Source of the DNA: Patescibacteria group bacterium
GTDB lineage: Bacteria > Patescibacteriota > Minisyncoccia > Portnoybacterales > GWB1-42-6
DNA: 64,000 nt
Assembly: GCA_022709865.1 (NCBI GenBank)
Contig: JAKLIA010000001.1
Coordinates: forward strand, 37,593 to 101,592
Direction of reading: 5' to 3'
This document shows, in pieces, positions 39,001 through 48,000 of this stretch. Made by a program: the position numbers. How positions within the stretch are numbered: the first letter of the stretch is position 1; every line of letters starts with the position of its first letter.

Positions 39001-42000
39001 ATATTTAGTTTTGTTTTTTTGACTTTGAATAATATAAGTATAGTACACTTTTTTGCCCTCCTTTGCATAAAGCTACGGAGGGCACTACTTCGCTTTAATT
39101 TATCGAAGACGATAGCATAAAGTGAGTGCGTGCACTACGAAGCCCTGAGTGTAACGAAGGGCGAAGTAGTGGAGGCGGGGAGATTGAACTCCCGTCCAGA
39201 AAATATTCCTAAAATACATCTACAAACTTATCCTAATTTATTTGTTCGGACCTAAAGCTGTTAATTAGGCAAAAATGCTTTAGGCCCTATCCGGTAATTT
39301 TTCAATTGTTATCCCCGGCAGGAAAACAACCTATTCCGAAAAAATTACACCCGGTGATTGCCTATCGGAAGTTAGCAGGCCGGATGGGTAAAGCTTATTT
39401 TATTAAGCTAAAACCGGAGCGTAAGAAGGCGTAAACGCATTCTTGACGCTTGTCAAAAAGTTGACATTTGTTTGTTTGCTGAAAGTTTATCGAGATTTTA
39501 GCACACTCGGTTTGCGTATTTTTAAGAGCATTAACTGTCGAGGCTTGCGCCCCCCTTCGTTCCGCTTCGCGGAACTCAGGGCAAGCCCATTCCGTAAGTG
39601 AGGCGAAGGCGAACGCAACTATTCGATTTTTCCTCTCAAAACTCGCCTGATGCGGCGGTCCGATTCGCGGCGGCCGATAATAGAGCGCTTGTCAAAAGAC
39701 TTTTTGCCCCGCGCCAGCGCGAATTCCAGCTTGATTTTGCTTTGGTTATTATATACTCTAATTGGCACTAAAGTCAACCCGGTTTGTTTGCTTTGTCCGA
39801 TTAAAGTGCGGATCTCGTCTTTATGCATTAAGAGTTTTCGGGAGCGGGTGGCTTCGTATCCCTTGGGCGTGTTTTTAGGTTGCCAGGCGGGGATATTGGC
39901 GTTCAGGAGCCAAGCTTCTTCGTCTTTTATAACCACAAAAGCGCCTTTTAAAGAGATGTGGCTGGCCCGGATGGATTTGACTTCTTGGCCGGTCAAAACT
40001 AAACCAGCCTCGTGTTTTTGGAGGAATTCGTAATCAAAACCGGCTTGTTTGTTATAGGTATAATCAGCCATATGAATAAGTTTACTTTATCACGATTATT
40101 GGCTAAACTAAAGGCATGATAAGAGATTTGATCAAAGGGGTTTTAGGTTTGCCCGAGGCGGCCATTGCTCCGACCGAAAATAAAGGGTTTGGCGACTATT
40201 CCACCAGCGCGGTTTTAAAATTGGCCAAACAACAAGGCAAAAATCCAATGGAGATGGCGCAGGAGATAGCGCAAAAATTGCAAAATCCCATGTTCTCAAA
40301 AGTGGAAGCCGCGCCGCCGGGCTTCATTAATTTTTATTTGTCGCCGGATTTTTTAGCCGGGCAGGTGGTGGAGATTTTAAGGGCTAAAGAAAATTATGGC
40401 GTGTTGGATTTGGGCAAAAATAAGAAAATCCAAGTGGAGTTTATTTCTGCCAACCCCACCGGTCCTTTAACGCTCGGTAATGGCCGGGGCGGATTTTTTG
40501 GCGATGTGCTGGCGAATGTTTTGGCTAAAGCGGGCTATGATGTAAAAAGAGAATATTTTGTTAATGACGCGGGGTATCAGGTGGAAGTTTTGGGCCACTC
40601 GGTTTTAAAAGATGAGAGCGCGCAATATAAAGGAGAATATATCGATAAATTAAATAAAAAGTTTGTTTGTTGGCTTTGTTCCAAAGACCCAAAAAAAATT
40701 GGCCAAAAAGCGGCCAAATATATTTTAAAAAACCTATTGCAGCCCACGATCGAGCAAAGAATGAAAATCAAGTTTGATGAGTGGGTTTCGGAAGGCGAGC
40801 TCCGCCAGAGCGGCGCCACGGATGAAGTGTTGGCCAAACTAAAAGCCAAAAACTTAACCTATGAGCAAGACGGCGCGCTTTGGTTTAAGTCCACCAGTTT
40901 TGGCGATGACAAGGATAGAGTTTTAATTACTTCCGCCAAAGATGGGCGAGAAGTTGCAGCGACTTATCTTTTACCGGATGCGGCGTATCATTATAAAAAA
41001 TTCGTTGAAGATAAGTTTGATAAAGTTATTAATATTTGGGGCGCGGATCACCACGGCTATATTGCTCGCCTGCAAGCGATTAAAAAGGCGCTGGAGATGC
41101 CGGGGGAGTTGGAAGTGGTAATAATGCAACTGGTGCGATTAATGGTTAAGGGGCAAGAAGTAAAAATGTCCAAGCGTGCCGGAACTTATATAACGCTGGA
41201 TGAATTACTGGAAGAAATCCCGCTGGACGTGGCGCGCTTCTTTTTCTTGATGCGCGCGCCTAACACCCACATGGATTTTGATTTGGACTTAGCCAAAGAG
41301 CAATCCGACAAAAACCCGGTTTATTATGTTCAATACGCCTATGCCCGGATTTGTAGTATCTTGCGCAAAGCGCCGGCGACTAAATCTCTCAGCCCCCAAG
41401 CGCTTAATCATCCTTCCGAGCTGGCTTTAATAAAGCAATTAATTCGCTTACCGGAAATTATTGAAGACACCGCCAAGGATTATGGCGCTCACCGTTTGCC
41501 GCAATATTCTCTGGACCTTGTTCGCAGCTTTCACAAGTTTTACGAAGACTGTAAAGTTTTGGATGAAAGCAACAAAGACCTGACCCAATCCCGCTTGGCG
41601 TTATGCGAAGCGACGAGGATTGTTTTGGCTAATACTTTATCATTGATGGGAATTTCGGCACCAGACAAAATGTAGATAATAGTTTATTCTAAGCCTAAGA
41701 AAGGATGTTAGAGAAGGATATCTTTAGGATATGCTTAAAAAGCAAAATAAAAAATTAAAATTTATAGATTTTTGCGCAGGAATTGGCGCAGGTCGTCTTG
41801 GTCTCCAGAAATTAGGACTAAGCTGTGTTGGTTTTTCTGAAATTGACAAATATGCAGAGTGGACGTATAGAAAATTTTTTGGTCAAGAAGAAAAAAACTA
41901 CGGAAATTTAATGAAAATTAACCCCAATGATTTACCCAATTTTGAATTAATGATTGCGGGTTTTCCATGTCAGTCTTTCTCTGTAATAGGGCAAAGAAAA

Positions 42001-45000: not shown

Positions 45001-48000
45001 AATTTTAGAAAAAATTAATGTATTTAGCGAAAATCAATTGTCGAGAATGAAAGATATAGAATTGATATTATTAATTATGAGCACAATTGAAACAAACGGA
45101 TATTTTACCAGGGACTACGAGGTGGGAAATTTAATTTCTGGTTTAAATGATGATTATCCTAATAAAAATAAAATAAAAAGAGATATTTTAGATGTTTTCC
45201 GACTAATTATTAAATTAAATTTGCCATCCGATTCGATATGGTTTAGGCTCTCAAGCTTTTTTACCTTAACCATCGAATTGATAAAATATAAAAGCAAAGA
45301 GGGAAAGTTGTTAAGCGTAAAAGCATTAAAAAATAAGTTATTAAAATTAGAAAAAGCACTCGAAACTAATAAAAATAAAAACATAGAAACCAATGAATAT
45401 GCTAAGTATTATTATTATGTATACCAGGCAACTGCAAGTAAGGCGGCAAGAATATTCAGGGGCAAAATAGTGGAAGAAGCATTAAGGTAGCTACGTTGAC
45501 GGATGGGAAACAAAAGGCATAGGGTATCATTAGTTTTTCGTAAGATTTTAAATTATGGAATACCTAAAATTAATTCTTATCGGAATCGCGGGGGTTATTT
45601 TGGGGACTTATTTAGGTCGGTGGAGAGCGAGATATAAAAAATCAAAATTAGCAAATAAGCAAAGCCAAAAGGTCGGAGAATATTAAATAATTAAAAATAA
45701 AATTATGCAACAATTTTTAATTCAAAATCCTTGGGTTATTTATTTAGCTCTCGCTTGGACTCTTCCTTGGAAGGGATTTGCTCTGTGGAAGGCGGCCAGG
45801 AACAGCCATAAGTGGTGGTTTATTGCGCTATTGGTGATTAATTCTTTGGCGATACTGGAAATCATTTATATTTTTATTTTCAGCAAAAAGAAGCAGTTGC
45901 CTTCTGCTTAATTTATATGGGGAAAAAACAAATCTGTATGATTGCTATTTTAGCTGTGGCTATCTTAGCCATTGGCGCGTTGGTTTTTTTGAATCAAAAT
46001 AAGGCAGGGCAGGTGGCTTGCACTATGGAAGCTAAGATTTGCCCGGATGGCTCTTCGGTTGGCCGCGGCGGGCCAAAATGCGAGTTTGCGCCGTGCCCGG
46101 AAGCCAGCCCGGTGCCGTCGGGCTGGGAAACTTTTACGGATGACAAGCTGGGTGTTTCGTTCCAATATCCCGCTAGCTTCTCGACTAAATATATCCAAGC
46201 CTTTGATTGGCCTCCTAAGGTTTCGTTCCAAAATCTTCCTTTTTATTGCGCGGCGGGCGGCAGCGAAATTACCAGAGCCGGCCGGACTGAACCGCGCGTT
46301 ATTGGCAACCACATTTATTGCGTGTCGACTTTAGTTGAGGGCGCGGCCGGTAGCACTTATACCCAATACGCTTATGCTTGGGAAGCGGGCGGCCGAGAAG
46401 TAATTTTTACTTTTTCTACCCGCGCGCCGCAGTGCGCCAACTACGACGACCCCAATAAAACGGAGTGCGAGAACGAGCGGGCCGCTTTTGATATTGATAA
46501 GATTTTTAATTCCATCGCTCAAACTTTAAAGCTCAAATAGCCAACGCTAGATGATAAATAAAAGCTATTGATTATTAACAATATGCCTCTTTTGCCGTAT
46601 AAATACGCTTATCTTTTTTGTTGTCTTATCTTGGCGGTTTTTTGGCTTTTGATATTTGCCAGACGGAAAGATTTGCGCCGCGAAATGGTTTGGGCGAGCT
46701 TGGCCGGTTTGCCTTTCGGCATAATTGATTATTTTTTGGTTCCGGCCTATTGGCATCCCGAATCGCTGTTTGGCTTGATGGAAAAATACGGCGTGGGCAT
46801 TGAAAGTTTTCTTTTTCTTTTTTTGATGGCCGGCTTGGTTTCGGTGATATATGAGTTTCTGTCTAACCGAAAGACCAAAAAGATAAACGGCAGCCGCAGC
46901 CGCCATTTGCATCTGCTGCCCTTGCTGCTGGGCGTTATTTGTTTTTTTACTTTAACGTTTCTGTTTCCAAATAAGGCAATATATAATTTTATAGCCGCGG
47001 GCGCCCTTGGCGGGCTGGCGGTGGTTTGGCTGAGGCGGGATCTTTTTAAACAGGCGGCGGCCAGCGCTTTAATTTTTACTTTGTTTTATTTTGGAGTTCT
47101 TCTTTTGGTCAATCAAATCTTTAGCGGCGTGATTGCCAGTGTTTATAATTTTAAAAATATGTGCGGTATTTTAGTTTTAGGAATACCGCTTGAAGAATTG
47201 TTGGCGGCCTTTTTTGCCGGCGGGTCCTGGTCTGTTTTTTATGAATACGTTAAATCGTACCGGGAGGAGAGGCTGGGATAAAATATAAAAATATGGACCA
47301 AAAGAAAAGAGACGATCTGCTTTTGGCGATAAAGGAAGAAGTTATTGCCTGCCAAAAATGCGGGCTTTATAAAACCCGCATTTTGCCGGTGGTGGGGCAG
47401 GGAAATCACAGCGCGCAAATTATGTTCATCGGCGAAGCGCCGGGAGCGAACGAAGATAAAACCGGCGTGCCTTTTTGCGGCAGCGCCGGCCAAATATTAA
47501 ATCAACTTTTAGCCTCGGTGGGCATTAAAAGGGAAGATGTTTATATTGCCAATATTTTAAAAGACCGGCCGCCGGGAAACCGCGAACCGGCTCCGGATGA
47601 AATTAGCGCTTGCACGCCGTATCTTTTGCGGCAAATTGCGATAATTGAACCAAAAATTATCGCCACCTTGGGCAACTACGCGACTCATTTTATTTTAGAA
47701 AAGTTTGGAGTGCCAAATAGCCGCTTGGGCATCAGCCAATTGCGGGGCCAGAAGTTTGCCGTTAGCGACCCGCTTACCAAAAAACCCTATATCATTATTC
47801 CTTTGTACCACCCGGCCGTGGCTATTTATAACCGCCAGCAATTAGACACACTAAAGAACGATTTTAAAATTATCGGAGAGCAGTTGAAATAAAAACCCCT
47901 CTAAAGAGCAGCTTTTTAGCGGGGTTTTTGCTTTAAAACAGGTCAAAATAGGGCAGATTTTGAGAGGCATCATTTTGACTTTTGGGCTATTTTAAGCTAA

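What the first reader, a model, noticed from the sequence alone, without database searches (positions are those of the whole stretch)
41731..45490. AT-rich five-gene defence island downstream of argS: an MspI/HpaII-like m5C R-M system with Vsr plus the NTase-DUF262 pair
The five genes are separated by 2-3 nt gaps or 11 nt overlaps, and all have markedly lower GC than the flanking argS and downstream genes. This indicates a horizontally acquired single operon. The MTase has canonical m5C motifs I, IV and VI. The REase C-terminus (AKMLQFK) and the GGFRNEKDVIIRF segment resemble MspI. The accompanying vsr matches the known HpaII R-M-V arrangement, which guards against 5mC deamination T:G mismatches. 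No integrase or tRNA sits at the borders, so the insertion mechanism is unclear.
Basis: partly seen in the sequence, partly recalled or inferred. Interest (0 to 1): 0.6.

Follow-up and report, generated by a model that had tools for sequence, protein, structure and literature searches.

The report
GCGC restriction cassette with unknown partner
A small imported gene island in a Candidatus Portnoybacteria genome joins an ordinary HinP1I-type restriction-methylation-repair cassette (predicted target GCGC, not CCGG) to an uncharacterised two-gene module that also sits beside cytosine-methylase restriction systems in many unrelated bacteria.

Summary
Five co-directional ORFs (41731-45490) are separated by 3 and 2 nt or overlap by 11 nt, at 29-34% GC against about 44% in flanking argS and ileS.

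Genes 1-3 are an m5C methyltransferase, a restriction endonuclease and Vsr. The endonuclease is a full-length HinP1I homologue (49% identity). The catalytic residues and the three cited base-contact residues are all conserved. MspI is not detectable by sequence. The predicted target is therefore GCGC, not CCGG. This M-R-V cassette recurs at 70-85% identity in other CPR bacteria, without genes 4-5.

Genes 4-5 are a separate module: a small protein with a minimal-nucleotidyltransferase motif (weak evidence) and a DUF262/ParB protein lacking a nuclease domain. In 85 genomes from many phyla, gene 5 relatives almost always have a gene 4 relative directly upstream, and a natural fusion exists. The only recurrent functional neighbour is an m5C methyltransferase (23/85 loci against 2/80 controls). 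In several loci it belongs to an apparently complete R-M system; six endonuclease families are represented.

The island sits in a variable argS-ileS hotspot. The R-M-V part is ordinary. The partner module is unnamed in the libraries searched, and its mechanism is inferred only.

The parts
41731..42720 (+). C5-cytosine DNA methyltransferase (329 aa), the modification subunit; inferred target GCGC
   Evidence: PF00145 1.7e-72 over residues 9-324 and TIGR00675 275 bits. It is 42% identical to M.HhaI over residues 4-203 only; the target-recognition domain is not alignable. It is 71-80% identical over its full length to the MTases of other CPR M-R(HinP1I-like)-V cassettes.
42724..43485 (+). HinP1I-family Type IIP restriction endonuclease (253 aa); predicted to cut G^CGC
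   Evidence: PF11463 4.7e-85. PDB 1ynm (R.HinP1I) 8e-79, aligned over residues 6-251. Identity is 48.6% over 243 positions. E18, D62, Q81, K83, Q93, K96 and K223 are all conserved (residue roles for Q93, K96 and K223 from PMC7026639). MspI is not found.
43488..43901 (+). Vsr very-short-patch-repair T:G mismatch endonuclease (137 aa)
   Evidence: TIGR00632 5.7e-38 (129.9 bits against a cut-off of 97.85), PF03852 1.3e-28, and E. coli Vsr 1cw0 1.3e-20 with the GxPD and CFWH segments aligned. It is 70-73% identical to the Vsr of cassettes L172 and L173, and 65% identical to the Vsr of the different cassette in L169.
43891..44499 (+). Gene 4: 202-aa protein of an unnamed family with a minimal-nucleotidyltransferase-like motif (G71-S72 ... 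S92-D93-x-D95); obligate upstream partner of gene 5
   Evidence: It has no Pfam, NCBIfam, PADLOC or PDB hit of its own; phrog_32008 matches at 1e-13. The motif is invariant in 21 homologues. Sub-threshold PF01909 hits occur in 9 of 21 and 28 of 98 relatives (best 2.4e-4), on the S-D-x-D strand. hhalign against kanamycin NTase aligns the helix-strand-GS...SDIx register (P=0.038). The AF2 model has pLDDT 90 but no Foldseek neighbour. A profile search finds 1615 cluster representatives.
44489..45490 (+). Gene 5: 333-aa ParB-like DUF262 NTPase domain plus a C-terminal helical domain (ParBDB-like); no nuclease domain
   Evidence: PF03235 3.4e-22, PADLOC NsnA 2.2e-34 and phrog_2598 2e-38. The three DUF262 motifs QRxxxW, DGQQR and FxxxN are invariant (motif definitions from PMC12065111). 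The AF2 model (pLDDT 82) has BrxU, ParB-CTP, KorB and a DndBCDE-DndI entry among its nine matches with E below 1, all weak (best E 3e-3, TM 0.2-0.3). There is no DUF1524 hit.
42753..42781 (+). Possible regulatory hairpin (12-bp stem) inside the 5' end of the REase coding region
   Evidence: It appears as a terminator-like or inverted-repeat hit. The RNA fold gives -17.1 kcal/mol, z=-4.8. The stem is kept in L172 and L171, with one synonymous compensatory change, and is weak in L173. Only four sequences were compared, so it is tentative.
41676..41730 (+). Left junction: 55-bp spacer between the argS stop codon and the MTase start codon; no controller (C) protein gene
   Evidence: Sequence read. 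L172 has an HTH gene and L173 has a 76-aa ORF upstream of their MTases. No convincing sigma-70-like site was found.

Best explanation
The island is a composite of two mobile defence modules. It lies in the variable argS-ileS intergenic hotspot of a Candidatus Portnoybacteria (CPR) genome.

Module 1 (genes 1-3) is a Type IIP m5C restriction-modification system of the HinP1I type, plus Vsr. The MTase methylates C5 of a cytosine in GCGC on host DNA. The monomeric PD-(D/E)XK-type REase cuts unmethylated G^CGC on incoming DNA. Vsr nicks 5' of the T in the T:G mismatches that arise when the 5-methylcytosines deaminate, so the sites are repaired back to C:G.

Module 2 (genes 4-5) is an obligate two-gene unit: a minimal (MNT-like) nucleotidyltransferase followed by a ParB-like DUF262 NTPase with a helical DNA-binding domain and no nuclease. 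I propose that it is a second-line defence accessory of m5C R-M systems. Gene 5 would read DNA state, most likely cytosine modification that lets a phage escape a C-methylation-based REase, in an NTP-dependent manner. Gene 4 would act on or with it by nucleotidyl transfer, either as a regulator of gene 5 (as in type VII MNT-HEPN pairs) or as the effector.

Shown: the domain identities of genes 1, 2, 3 and 5; conservation of the catalytic and recognition residues; the strict 4-5 pairing and a natural fusion; enrichment next to m5C MTases and R-M systems; the composite origin; the hotspot.

Inferred: GCGC as the MTase target; the Vsr sequence context; the NTase fold of gene 4; the whole mechanism of module 2.
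For: Module 1:
- PF11463 4.7e-85. HinP1I (1ynm) 8e-79 over the full length, 48.6% identity, with E18, D62, Q81, K83, Q93, K96 and K223 all conserved (PMC7026639).
- PF00145 and TIGR00675 for M; TIGR00632 above its cut-off for Vsr.
- The same M-R-V cassette, tightly packed, occurs in other CPR genomes (L172, L173) at M 71-80%, R 80-82% and V 70-73% identity, with an identical target-recognition-domain core.

Module 2:
- Among 85 unique loci holding a gene 5 relative (31-61% identity; Cyanobacteria, Bacillota, Bacteroidota, Acidobacteriota, Poribacteria, Campylobacterota, Gammaproteobacteria, CPR), 77 hold a gene 4 relative. It lies directly upstream on the same strand in nearly all of them. Exceptions seen include contig edges (L024, L030), an IS disruption (L009), a displaced copy (L058) and one locus with none (L075).
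- P0205 is a 536-aa natural fusion of the two families.
- The pair has lower GC than its flanks in 11 of 11 loci checked.
- Unbiased neighbour clustering finds one recurrent functional neighbour, the m5C MTase: 23 of 85 loci against 2 of 80 argS-centred control loci (Fisher p=5e-6). Only 5 loci have a PF01555-type N6/N4 MTase. The next cluster is ABC-transporter ATPases, which is generic paralogy.
- The pair abuts m5C R-M systems with different REases and gene orders: HinP1I (window), EcoRII (L010), NgoPII plus a C protein (L032), NgoFVII plus Vsr (L065), HNH (L071). In L060 it lies between the MTase and an MvaI/BcnI REase.
- Gene 5 carries all three DUF262 motifs, and its weak structural matches are BrxU and ParB proteins.
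- Precedent: DUF262 proteins sense modified DNA in GmrSD, BrxU and SspE, and the two-gene DUF262 system Dazbog is triggered by phage m5C methylase activity (PMC10952713; bioRxiv 10.1101/2022.08.27.505566).

Hotspot:
- IF3-SmpB-ArgS-IleS synteny is conserved in 80 related contigs. The argS-ileS gap ranges from about 25 bp to about 7.5 kb.
- The closest relative (L169; ArgS 84%, IleS 89%) carries a different M plus an NgoFVII-like R plus a 65%-identical Vsr at the same site, with no genes 4-5.
Against: - The MTase target-recognition domain does not align with M.HhaI, the only GCGC MTase available for comparison. Its GCGC specificity therefore rests only on partnership with the REase.
- GCGC is not avoided in the window (470 sites, O/E 1.06), so composition gives no independent support.
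- Gene 4's NTase assignment is weak. All PF01909 hits are below the gathering score and mostly cover about 20 residues. hhalign gives P=0.038. A pLDDT-90 model has no Foldseek neighbour in PDB or BFVD.
- 62 of 85 pair loci have no m5C MTase within 7 kb, so the pair can exist without one nearby.
- The control set is taxonomically different (CPR only), and the roughly 12 'long MTase' loci are one clade, so the p-value overstates independence.
- If gene 5 sensed m5C generally, as proposed for Dazbog, living beside an m5C MTase would be self-toxic. This argues for a different trigger, or one restricted by sequence context.
- No experiment exists for any member of the pair.
Confidence: 0.6

Rival explanations
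1. One reading: an MspI/HpaII-like R-M system that recognises CCGG, with Vsr repairing C(T/C)GG mismatches.
For: HinP1I and MspI share a fold and both are monomeric (PMC7026639), so 'MspI-like' is true at the structural level. The M-R-V arrangement is real.
Against: The REase is 48.6% identical to HinP1I, and the three HinP1I GCGC base-contact residues cited in PMC7026639 are conserved. MspI is not retrieved at E<=1 with the single sequence or E<=10 with a profile. The peptides cited as MspI-like are HinP1I-conserved segments.
Confidence: 0.04
2. Genes 4-5 are a free-standing defence system (Type IV-like or abortive infection) with no functional tie to the R-M-V cassette. The proximity to m5C MTases only reflects general clustering of defence genes in islands and hotspots.
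For: 73% of pair loci lack a nearby m5C MTase. The pair also occurs beside an N6/N4 MTase system (L004), CBASS-like genes (L008), TA genes (L001) and at the end of an integrative element (L006). The closest homologue of the pair (61%, L001) has no R-M-V.
Against: No other defence family recurs as a neighbour, whereas m5C MTases do so in 27% of loci, against 5 loci for PF01555 MTases. Adjacency is immediate and holds in several gene orders. In L060 the pair is embedded between M and R, and about 12 loci show translationally coupled MTase-gene 4-gene 5 operons.
Confidence: 0.28
3. Genes 4-5 are themselves a restriction component that reads the m5C mark as 'self' and attacks unmethylated DNA. They would be an alternative or second 'R' for the adjacent MTase, a BREX-like or R-M-like logic.
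For: About 12 loci have only a long m5C MTase directly upstream of the pair, in one operon. In most of these the gene 5 form is longer (about 500 aa) with an extra C-terminal domain. A PADLOC 'Type II REase' model matches the DUF262 region of gene 5 (PDLC03418, 5e-16).
Against: Most pairs have no MTase nearby. The short form in this window has no nuclease domain. In the window, L010, L032 and L065 the MTase already has a classical REase partner.
Confidence: 0.08
4. Genes 4-5 are a toxin-antitoxin-type addiction module (MNT-like antitoxin, DUF262 toxin) that stabilises whatever mobile DNA carries it, without sensing phage.
For: The gene order (small NTase first, overlapping the larger partner) mimics type VII MNT-HEPN pairs; this comparison is from my own knowledge of those systems. 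The pair is consistently low-GC and mobile. It lies next to TA genes in L001.
Against: Gene 5 has no known toxic domain. The strong 50% identity conservation of gene 5 across phyla and the specific m5C association are not expected for a generic addiction module.
Confidence: 0.06

Closest known systems
HinP1I restriction-modification system (Haemophilus influenzae P1; R.HinP1I structures 1ynm, 2fkc)
   Same: The REase has the same length class (253 against 247 aa), aligns over its full length at 48.6% identity, and keeps the same catalytic and GCGC base-contact residues. It is partnered with an m5C MTase.
   Different: The host is a CPR bacterium. A Vsr gene is part of the cassette. The MTase recognition domain is unlike that of M.HhaI. 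M.HinP1I could not be compared. Activity is untested.
m5C R-M systems with an attached vsr gene (for example HpaII with V.HpaII, or E. coli dcm-vsr; recalled from the literature, not checked here)
   Same: An m5C MTase is linked to a Vsr homologue that should correct 5mC-deamination T:G mismatches. The genes are tightly packed.
   Different: The recognition sequence is predicted to be GCGC, not CCGG or CCWGG. The M-R-V order is conserved in CPR. The sequence context of this Vsr is unknown.
Dazbog (two-gene DUF262 abortive-infection system, Bacillus; Millman 2022 and Stokar-Avihail 2022)
   Same: It has two genes, a DUF262 protein without DUF1524, and a link to cytosine-5 methylation: Dazbog is triggered by a phage m5C methylase (bioRxiv 10.1101/2022.08.27.505566).
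   Different: In Dazbog the DUF262 gene comes first. None of the PADLOC families listed for genes 4 or 5 is a Dazbog model. The present pair lives beside host m5C MTases, which a general m5C trigger would not tolerate.
Menshen NsnA (ParB-DUF262 plus ParBDB sensor of NsnABC; PMC12065111)
   Same: NsnA is the best PADLOC match of gene 5 (2.2e-34; full model length in relatives). The two-domain architecture and motifs I-III are the same.
   Different: There is no NsnB ABC-ATPase and no NsnC effector. The partner is instead a small upstream NTase-like protein.
GmrSD / BrxU / SspE Type IV enzymes, and DUF262 modules embedded in R-M loci (TgvAB; PMC12409362)
   Same: A DUF262 NTPase domain with a helical middle domain, and BrxU is the best (weak) structural match. 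The genomic habit is shared: these modules sit inside or beside modification-based defence loci as complementary protection.
   Different: There is no DUF1524 His-Me nuclease. The associated loci are Type II m5C systems, not Type I, BREX or Ssp. The partner is NTase-like.
Type VII HEPN-MNT toxin-antitoxin pairs, and PD-T4-2 (DUF262 plus HEPN)
   Same: A small Pol-beta-type NTase motif protein is encoded first and overlaps its partner. DUF262 is known to be fused or paired with HEPN (PMC3632139, PMC10952713). One relative of gene 5 carries HEPN_RES_NTD1.
   Different: There is no HEPN domain in the window's gene 5. Nucleotidylation of the partner is speculation.

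Membership tests
HinP1I family of Type IIP restriction endonucleases (PF11463) | Full-length match to the family model above the curated threshold | tested here: met
   284.7 bits against a cut-off of 25; residues 44-251 cover profile positions 1-208 of 208. PADLOC REase_II PDLC03500 8e-96.
HinP1I family of Type IIP restriction endonucleases (PF11463) | Catalytic residues E18, D62, Q81 and K83 (PD-(D/E)XK variant) | tested here: met
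   They align to E21, D66, Q87 and K89. The assignment of these positions as catalytic comes from my recollection of the HinP1I structure papers.
HinP1I family of Type IIP restriction endonucleases (PF11463) | GCGC base-contact residues Q93, K96 and K223 | tested here: met
   Conserved as Q99, K102 and K229. Residue roles are from PMC7026639.
HinP1I family of Type IIP restriction endonucleases (PF11463) | Cleavage of G^CGC, blocked by m5C | not testable with these tools
   Needs enzyme assays.
MspI / HpaII (CCGG) systems | Detectable sequence similarity of the REase to MspI | tested here: not met
   The PDB holds MspI (1SA3, cited in PMC7026639). MspI is absent from phmmer results at E<=1 and from profile hmmsearch results at E<=10.
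C5-cytosine DNA methyltransferases (PF00145 / TIGR00675) | Conserved motifs I, IV, VI, VIII and X, and an end-to-end model match | tested here: met
   245 bits over profile positions 1-323 of 324; TIGR00675 275 bits against a cut-off of 100.65. FCAGIGAG, GFPCQSF, ENVKG, QMRERIY and GNAMTVN are readable.
M.HhaI-type GCGC methyltransferases | Target-recognition domain homologous to that of M.HhaI (Q237/R240 loop) | tested here: not met
   Only residues 4-203 or 4-204 align, at 42% identity. The C-terminal third scores -1.3 bits or is not aligned.
Vsr mismatch endonucleases (TIGR00632 / PF03852) | Family model above threshold, and the catalytic Asp (GxPD) and CFWH segments | tested here: met
   129.9 bits against a cut-off of 97.85. 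The alignment to E. coli Vsr 1cw0 shows GKPD/GRPD and CFWH conserved. T:G nicking is not testable here.
GmrSD-family Type IV restriction enzymes | N-terminal DUF262 with the DGQQR NTP-binding motif | tested here: met
   PF03235 80 bits against a cut-off of 33.2. The DGQQR residues are invariant.
GmrSD-family Type IV restriction enzymes | C-terminal DUF1524 His-Me finger nuclease | tested here: not met
   No DUF1524 hit at E<=0.1. The protein ends at residue 333 after helices only. No invariant His lies downstream of H42.
Menshen (NsnABC) | NsnA followed by the NsnB ABC-ATPase and the NsnC effector | tested here: not met
   Gene 5 matches the NsnA model. No ATPase or NsnC gene follows it: the next genes are a 43-aa ORF and a DUF5652 gene. 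In 77 of 85 loci the conserved partner is gene 4, upstream.
Dazbog | Match to the DzbA/DzbB models; DUF262 gene first | tested here: not met
   No Dazbog model appears among the PADLOC hits of gene 4 or gene 5 or their relatives. I assumed, but did not check, that PADLOC-DB 2.0.0 holds Dazbog models. The gene order is reversed (bioRxiv 10.1101/2022.08.27.505566).
Pol-beta superfamily minimal nucleotidyltransferases (PF01909 clan), for gene 4 | The hG[GS] ... [S]DxD signature on a helix-strand-loop-helix-strand core | tested here: met
   G71, S72, S92, D93 and D95 are invariant in 21 sequences and invariant or >=90% conserved in 98 sequences. The predicted secondary structure is H46-60, E67-70, GS, H72-75, E94-99, H101-115.
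Pol-beta superfamily minimal nucleotidyltransferases (PF01909 clan), for gene 4 | Statistically significant sequence or structure match to a known NTase | tested here: inconclusive
CBASS / CD-NTase systems | A CD-NTase plus an effector recognised by defence models | tested here: not met
   No PADLOC hit for gene 4 or its relatives.

The most novel reading that the evidence does not exclude
The NTase-like/DUF262 pair is a previously undescribed, dedicated accessory of cytosine-5-methylation Type II R-M systems. It would be a 'second layer' that reads cytosine-modification state, or guards the MTase/REase, and that acts by nucleotidyl transfer rather than through a fused nuclease. It has been recruited repeatedly beside R-M systems with at least six unrelated endonuclease families, across many phyla.
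Probability: 0.35. Interest if true: 0.75.

Novelty: new variant of a known kind. Interest (0 to 1): 0.5.

Why it matters
The R-M-V cassette is routine, but it corrects the predicted methylome mark from CCGG to GCGC. It also shows that one HinP1I-type cassette circulates at about 80% identity among several CPR classes, lineages thought to rely mainly on R-M for defence.

The more useful result concerns genes 4-5. This pair is widespread: 1615 cluster representatives for gene 4, and more than 340 close gene 5 relatives. It is strictly paired and mobile. It is absent from Pfam (gene 4), NCBIfam and PADLOC, and no paper in the held library describes it. Its one recurrent functional neighbour is an m5C methyltransferase or a complete m5C R-M system.

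If the link is functional, it would add a new way in which DUF262 sensors are coupled to an effector, through an NTase instead of a nuclease, ATPase or HEPN domain. It would also be a new example of layered defence built around Type II m5C systems. This is directly testable in cultivable hosts that carry the pair (Bacillus cereus, Paenibacillus typhae, Anoxybacillus, Flagellimonas).

Tried and rejected
- MspI relationship: phmmer with the single sequence and a 10-sequence profile against all PDB sequences returned only HinP1I.
- MTase specificity from the recognition domain: BLASTP and phmmer against M.HhaI align only the catalytic N-terminal two-thirds, so no independent call is possible.
- GCGC avoidance as a proxy for the R-M target: GCGC O/E is 1.06 and CCGG is 1.17, which is uninformative.
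- Insertion scars: no direct or inverted repeats bracket the island, and no tRNA or integrase is present. The tmRNA gene is 2.2 kb away, with argS in between. A tmRNA-targeted integration of this island is therefore rejected.
- GmrD-like His-Me nuclease for gene 4: rejected, because no His is invariant.
- HEPN in the gene 5 C-terminus: rejected, because there is no Rx4-6H motif and no invariant His.
- Phage origin: tblastn of gene 5 against 50,697 phage records found only distant hits limited to the DUF262 domain (at most 64% coverage and about 31% identity).
- Named systems in the literature: seven full-text searches on DUF262, NTase, ParB-like, Menshen, PD-T4-2 and Dazbog found no description of this pair.
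- The next most recurrent neighbour cluster turned out to be ABC-transporter ATPases, that is, generic paralogues.
- Promoter and terminator scans were no better than shuffles for promoters (17 found against 19.2 expected), and no terminator follows gene 5.

Full report
OBSERVATION

The five ORFs exist exactly as described: 41731-42720, 42724-43485, 43488-43901, 43891-44499 and 44489-45490, all on the + strand. The spacings are +3, +2, -11 and -11 nt. Their GC content is 0.29-0.34, against 0.447 for the upstream gene, 0.438 for ileS downstream and 0.428 for the whole window. The upstream gene is argS: its best solved relatives are arginyl-tRNA synthetases (9.5e-74). The 943-aa gene at 48012 is ileS (1.6e-265). 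Proteins identical to genes 2, 4 and 5 are on record from a Candidatus Portnoybacteria MAG, with a longest contig of 376,744 bp.

GENES 1-3: AN M-R-V CASSETTE OF THE HinP1I TYPE

Gene 1 is a complete C5-cytosine methyltransferase (PF00145 1.7e-72, TIGR00675 275 bits).

Gene 2 matches PF11463 'R.HinP1I' (4.7e-85) and the HinP1I crystal-structure sequence over its whole length (8e-79). Identity is 48.6% over 243 aligned positions. E18, D62, Q81 and K83 are conserved. So are Q93, K96 and K223, the three residues that PMC7026639 names as contacting the G:C pairs of GCGC. MspI is in the PDB (1SA3, per PMC7026639) but is not found at E<=1 with the single sequence or E<=10 with a family profile. HinP1I and MspI resemble each other only in fold (PMC7026639). 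The predicted specificity is therefore G^CGC, not CCGG.

Gene 3 is Vsr (TIGR00632 129.9 bits against a cut-off of 97.85; E. coli Vsr 1.3e-20, with the GxPD and CFWH segments aligned).

One caveat applies to the MTase. It is 42% identical to M.HhaI (a GCGC enzyme) across the catalytic two-thirds, but its target-recognition domain does not align with that of M.HhaI. Its GCGC specificity is therefore inferred from its partner. GCGC is not avoided in the window (O/E 1.06), so composition gives no independent support.

The cassette is a unit. The REase has 5870 homologues, and the best 120 are all between 251 and 260 aa (most exactly 253) and 78-85% identical. Those that carry a source name come from Wolfe-, Uhr-, Moran-, Buchanan- and Portnoybacteria or unclassified Patescibacteria. 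In two of the three contexts inspected (L172, L173), the same tightly packed M-R-V order occurs. There the MTase is 71-80% identical and Vsr 70-73% identical to the window's, and the recognition-domain core (DTRQSDLRLYRxKVPTLRTGRHGILYV) is identical. Genes 4-5 are absent.

GENES 4-5: A SEPARATE, OBLIGATE PAIR

Gene 5 has a DUF262 domain (PF03235 3.4e-22) with its three motifs invariant: QRxxxW, DGQQR and FxxxN (motif definitions from PMC12065111). A helical domain follows it. There is no DUF1524 or other nuclease domain. Its best defence-model match is Menshen NsnA (2.2e-34). A pLDDT-82 model has BrxU as its best structural match, followed by ParB-CTP, KorB and a DndBCDE-DndI entry. All of these matches are weak (best E 3e-3, TM 0.2-0.3).

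Gene 4 has no Pfam, NCBIfam, PADLOC or PDB match. It belongs to a large family: 1615 cluster representatives at E<=1e-3. The signature G-S ... S-D-x-D is invariant in that family. Nine of 21 and 28 of 98 relatives give sub-threshold hits to PF01909 NTP_transf_2 (best 2.4e-4), four hit PF18765, and no other family recurs. Where the positions were inspected, the hits cover the S-D-x-D strand. SDIx register at P=0.038. A pLDDT-90 model has the matching secondary-structure order but no significant Foldseek neighbour in PDB or BFVD. 'MNT-like minimal nucleotidyltransferase' is therefore the best reading, but it is not proven.

The pairing is strict. I fetched 80 genome loci with gene 5 relatives (31-52% identity, many phyla) and added earlier contexts, giving 85 unique loci. 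Of these, 77 hold a gene 4 relative. It lies immediately upstream on the same strand, usually overlapping, in nearly all of them. Exceptions seen include contig edges (L024, L030), an IS-disrupted copy (L009), a displaced copy (L058) and one locus with none (L075). One database protein (P0205, 536 aa) is a natural fusion of the two families. The pair has lower GC than its flanks in 11 of 11 loci checked. It occurs at the end of an integrative element (L006), in a CBASS-containing island (L008), on a cyanobacterial plasmid (L009) and between housekeeping genes (L007). Its closest relative (61% identity, L001-L003) has no R-M-V cassette. The window's island is therefore a composite of two modules. 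Here they are joined so closely that vsr and gene 4 overlap by 11 nt.

AN UNEXPECTED REGULARITY

All-against-all clustering of the neighbours of the pair gives one recurrent functional family besides genes 4 and 5, the m5C methyltransferase. It is present in 23 of 85 loci, on the same strand in 81% of cases. The comparison set, 80 argS-centred control loci, has it in 2 (Fisher p=5e-6). PF01555-type N6/N4 MTases occur in 5 loci. The next cluster is ABC-transporter ATPases, which is generic paralogy.

In 17 of the 23 loci the MTase lies within about 250 bp of the pair. Gene order varies, and in several loci the MTase belongs to an apparently complete R-M system with a different endonuclease:
- HinP1I type plus Vsr (this window).
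- EcoRII (L010).
- A C protein plus NgoPII (L032).
- Vsr plus two MTases plus NgoFVII (L065).
- Two MTases plus an HNH endonuclease (L071).
- A GHKL-ATPase/Ymh protein plus Vsr (L038).
- L060, where the pair lies between a 753-aa MTase and an MvaI/BcnI-family REase.

About 12 mostly Bacteroidota loci have a long m5C MTase directly upstream of gene 4, usually within 20 nt. Most of these carry a longer gene 5 of about 500 aa.

Three caveats apply. The control is taxonomically narrow. The long-MTase loci are one clade. And 62 of 85 loci have no m5C MTase within 7 kb.

LOCATION

Across 80 related CPR contigs, the order IF3(-), SmpB(-), ArgS(+), IleS(+) is conserved. In many of them, argS and ileS are about 25 bp apart. 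In others, 0.1-7.5 kb of variable DNA intervenes.

The closest relative (L169; ArgS 84%, IleS 89%) carries a different cargo at this site. Its cargo is a 583-aa ORF with RadC and m5C MTase domains, an NgoFVII-like REase and a Vsr 65% identical to the window's, followed by unknown genes and the same UDG gene. It has no genes 4-5. The argS-ileS spacer is thus a hotspot where m5C R-M-V cassettes are exchanged.

No repeats, integrase or tRNA flank the island. A tmRNA gene lies 2.2 kb upstream, beyond argS.

MECHANISM

Module 1 follows established knowledge. M methylates GCGC. The monomeric REase nicks each strand of unmethylated G^CGC in turn (PMC7026639). Vsr initiates repair of 5mC-deamination T:G mismatches.

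For module 2, I commit to the following inference. Gene 5 is an NTP-dependent DNA-state sensor, like the DUF262 domains of GmrSD, BrxU and SspE (PMC10952713, PMC12065111). It would provide a second layer for C-methylation-based R-M systems, for example against phages whose modified cytosines resist those endonucleases. This parallels BrxU with BREX and TgvAB inside a Type I locus (PMC10952713, PMC12409362). Gene 4 would work with it by nucleotidyl transfer, most simply by modifying gene 5. That would mirror MNT-HEPN pairs, whose gene order the pair copies.

Dazbog is a two-gene DUF262 system triggered by a phage m5C methylase (bioRxiv 10.1101/2022.08.27.505566). It shows that such sensing is possible. 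It also raises a difficulty: a general m5C trigger would be self-toxic beside a host m5C MTase. The trigger must therefore differ from general m5C or be restricted by sequence context.

The rivals are an independent system that is merely co-located, an alternative restriction component, and an addiction module. All remain open.

COMPARISON AND NOVELTY

The R-M-V cassette is a new member of known families. The pair fails the membership tests for GmrSD (no DUF1524), Menshen (no NsnB or NsnC), Dazbog and PD-T4-2 (no model match, different partner) and CBASS. Gene 4 matches nothing in PADLOC 2.0.0 or NCBIfam 20.0. No paper in the held library describes the pair. I rate the whole as a new variant of a known kind. 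Interest is moderate (0.5) and comes almost entirely from the pair and its m5C association.

Noticed in passing
window 39167-39554 (-): A tmRNA gene (Rfam RF00023, 117.8 bits, full model) lies between a 79-aa ORF and smpB. ARAGORN did not report it. The 79-aa ORF at 38809-39048 (-) has a YxYxxxS start that looks GIY-YIG-like to me by eye (not tested). It is present in only some relatives (L091, L099, L104), so it may be a small insertion at the tmRNA 3' end.
   Followed up: partly
window 42753-42781: A 12-bp-stem hairpin lies within the first 60 nt of the REase coding region (RNA fold -17.1 kcal/mol, z=-4.8). It is retained in L172 and L171, with one synonymous compensatory U-A to C-G change, and is weak in L173. 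It could slow REase translation in a cassette that has no C protein here. Only four sequences were compared.
   Followed up: partly
window 41774 and 41786: The only two GCGC sites in the 3.76-kb island lie 12 bp apart in the first 60 nt of the MTase gene, in the coding sequence for motif I. This may be coincidence, or a site for MTase autoregulation.
   Followed up: no
whole window 1-64000: GTAC (14 sites, Markov O/E 0.50) and ACGT (36 sites, O/E 0.56) are the most avoided 4-bp palindromes. GCGC, CGCG, GGCC and CCGG occur 2.3-3.6 times more often than base composition predicts. The avoidance may point to other R-M pressures on this genome, such as GTAC- and ACGT-specific systems.
   Followed up: no
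window 45556-45687 (+): An unlisted 43-aa ORF that looks like a single transmembrane protein (MEYLKLILIGIAGVILGTYLG...) lies between the island and the DUF5652 gene. A 76%-identical copy lies downstream of argS in L106.
   Followed up: partly
L169 990-4301: The closest relative's argS-ileS spacer holds a different m5C system. It has a 583-aa ORF combining RadC/JAB and MTase domains, an NgoFVII-C-domain REase and a Vsr 65% identical to the window's. Vsr is far more conserved than M (34% identity), which suggests M-R swapping beside a resident vsr.
   Followed up: partly
L060 2210-7389; L072 4013-9508: In L060 the gene 4-5 pair sits between a 753-aa m5C MTase and an MvaI/BcnI-family REase. In L072 and about 10 other loci, mostly Bacteroidota, a long MTase, gene 4 and a longer gene 5 (about 500 aa in most) form one operon. 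In L072 a DUF4365 protein follows. The extra C-terminal domain of the long gene 5 has no Pfam match.
   Followed up: partly
P0205 (536 aa, metagenomic): A natural fusion: the gene 4 family occupies residues 10-186 and DUF262 plus an NsnA-like region occupies residues 196-528.
   Followed up: yes
L172 6216-7269; L173 973-6163: In L172 the HinP1I-type M-R-V cassette is followed by a ThsB-TIR gene and a 202-aa gene, and is preceded by an HTH (C-protein-like) gene. In L173 the cassette also lies close to IF3-SmpB.
   Followed up: no
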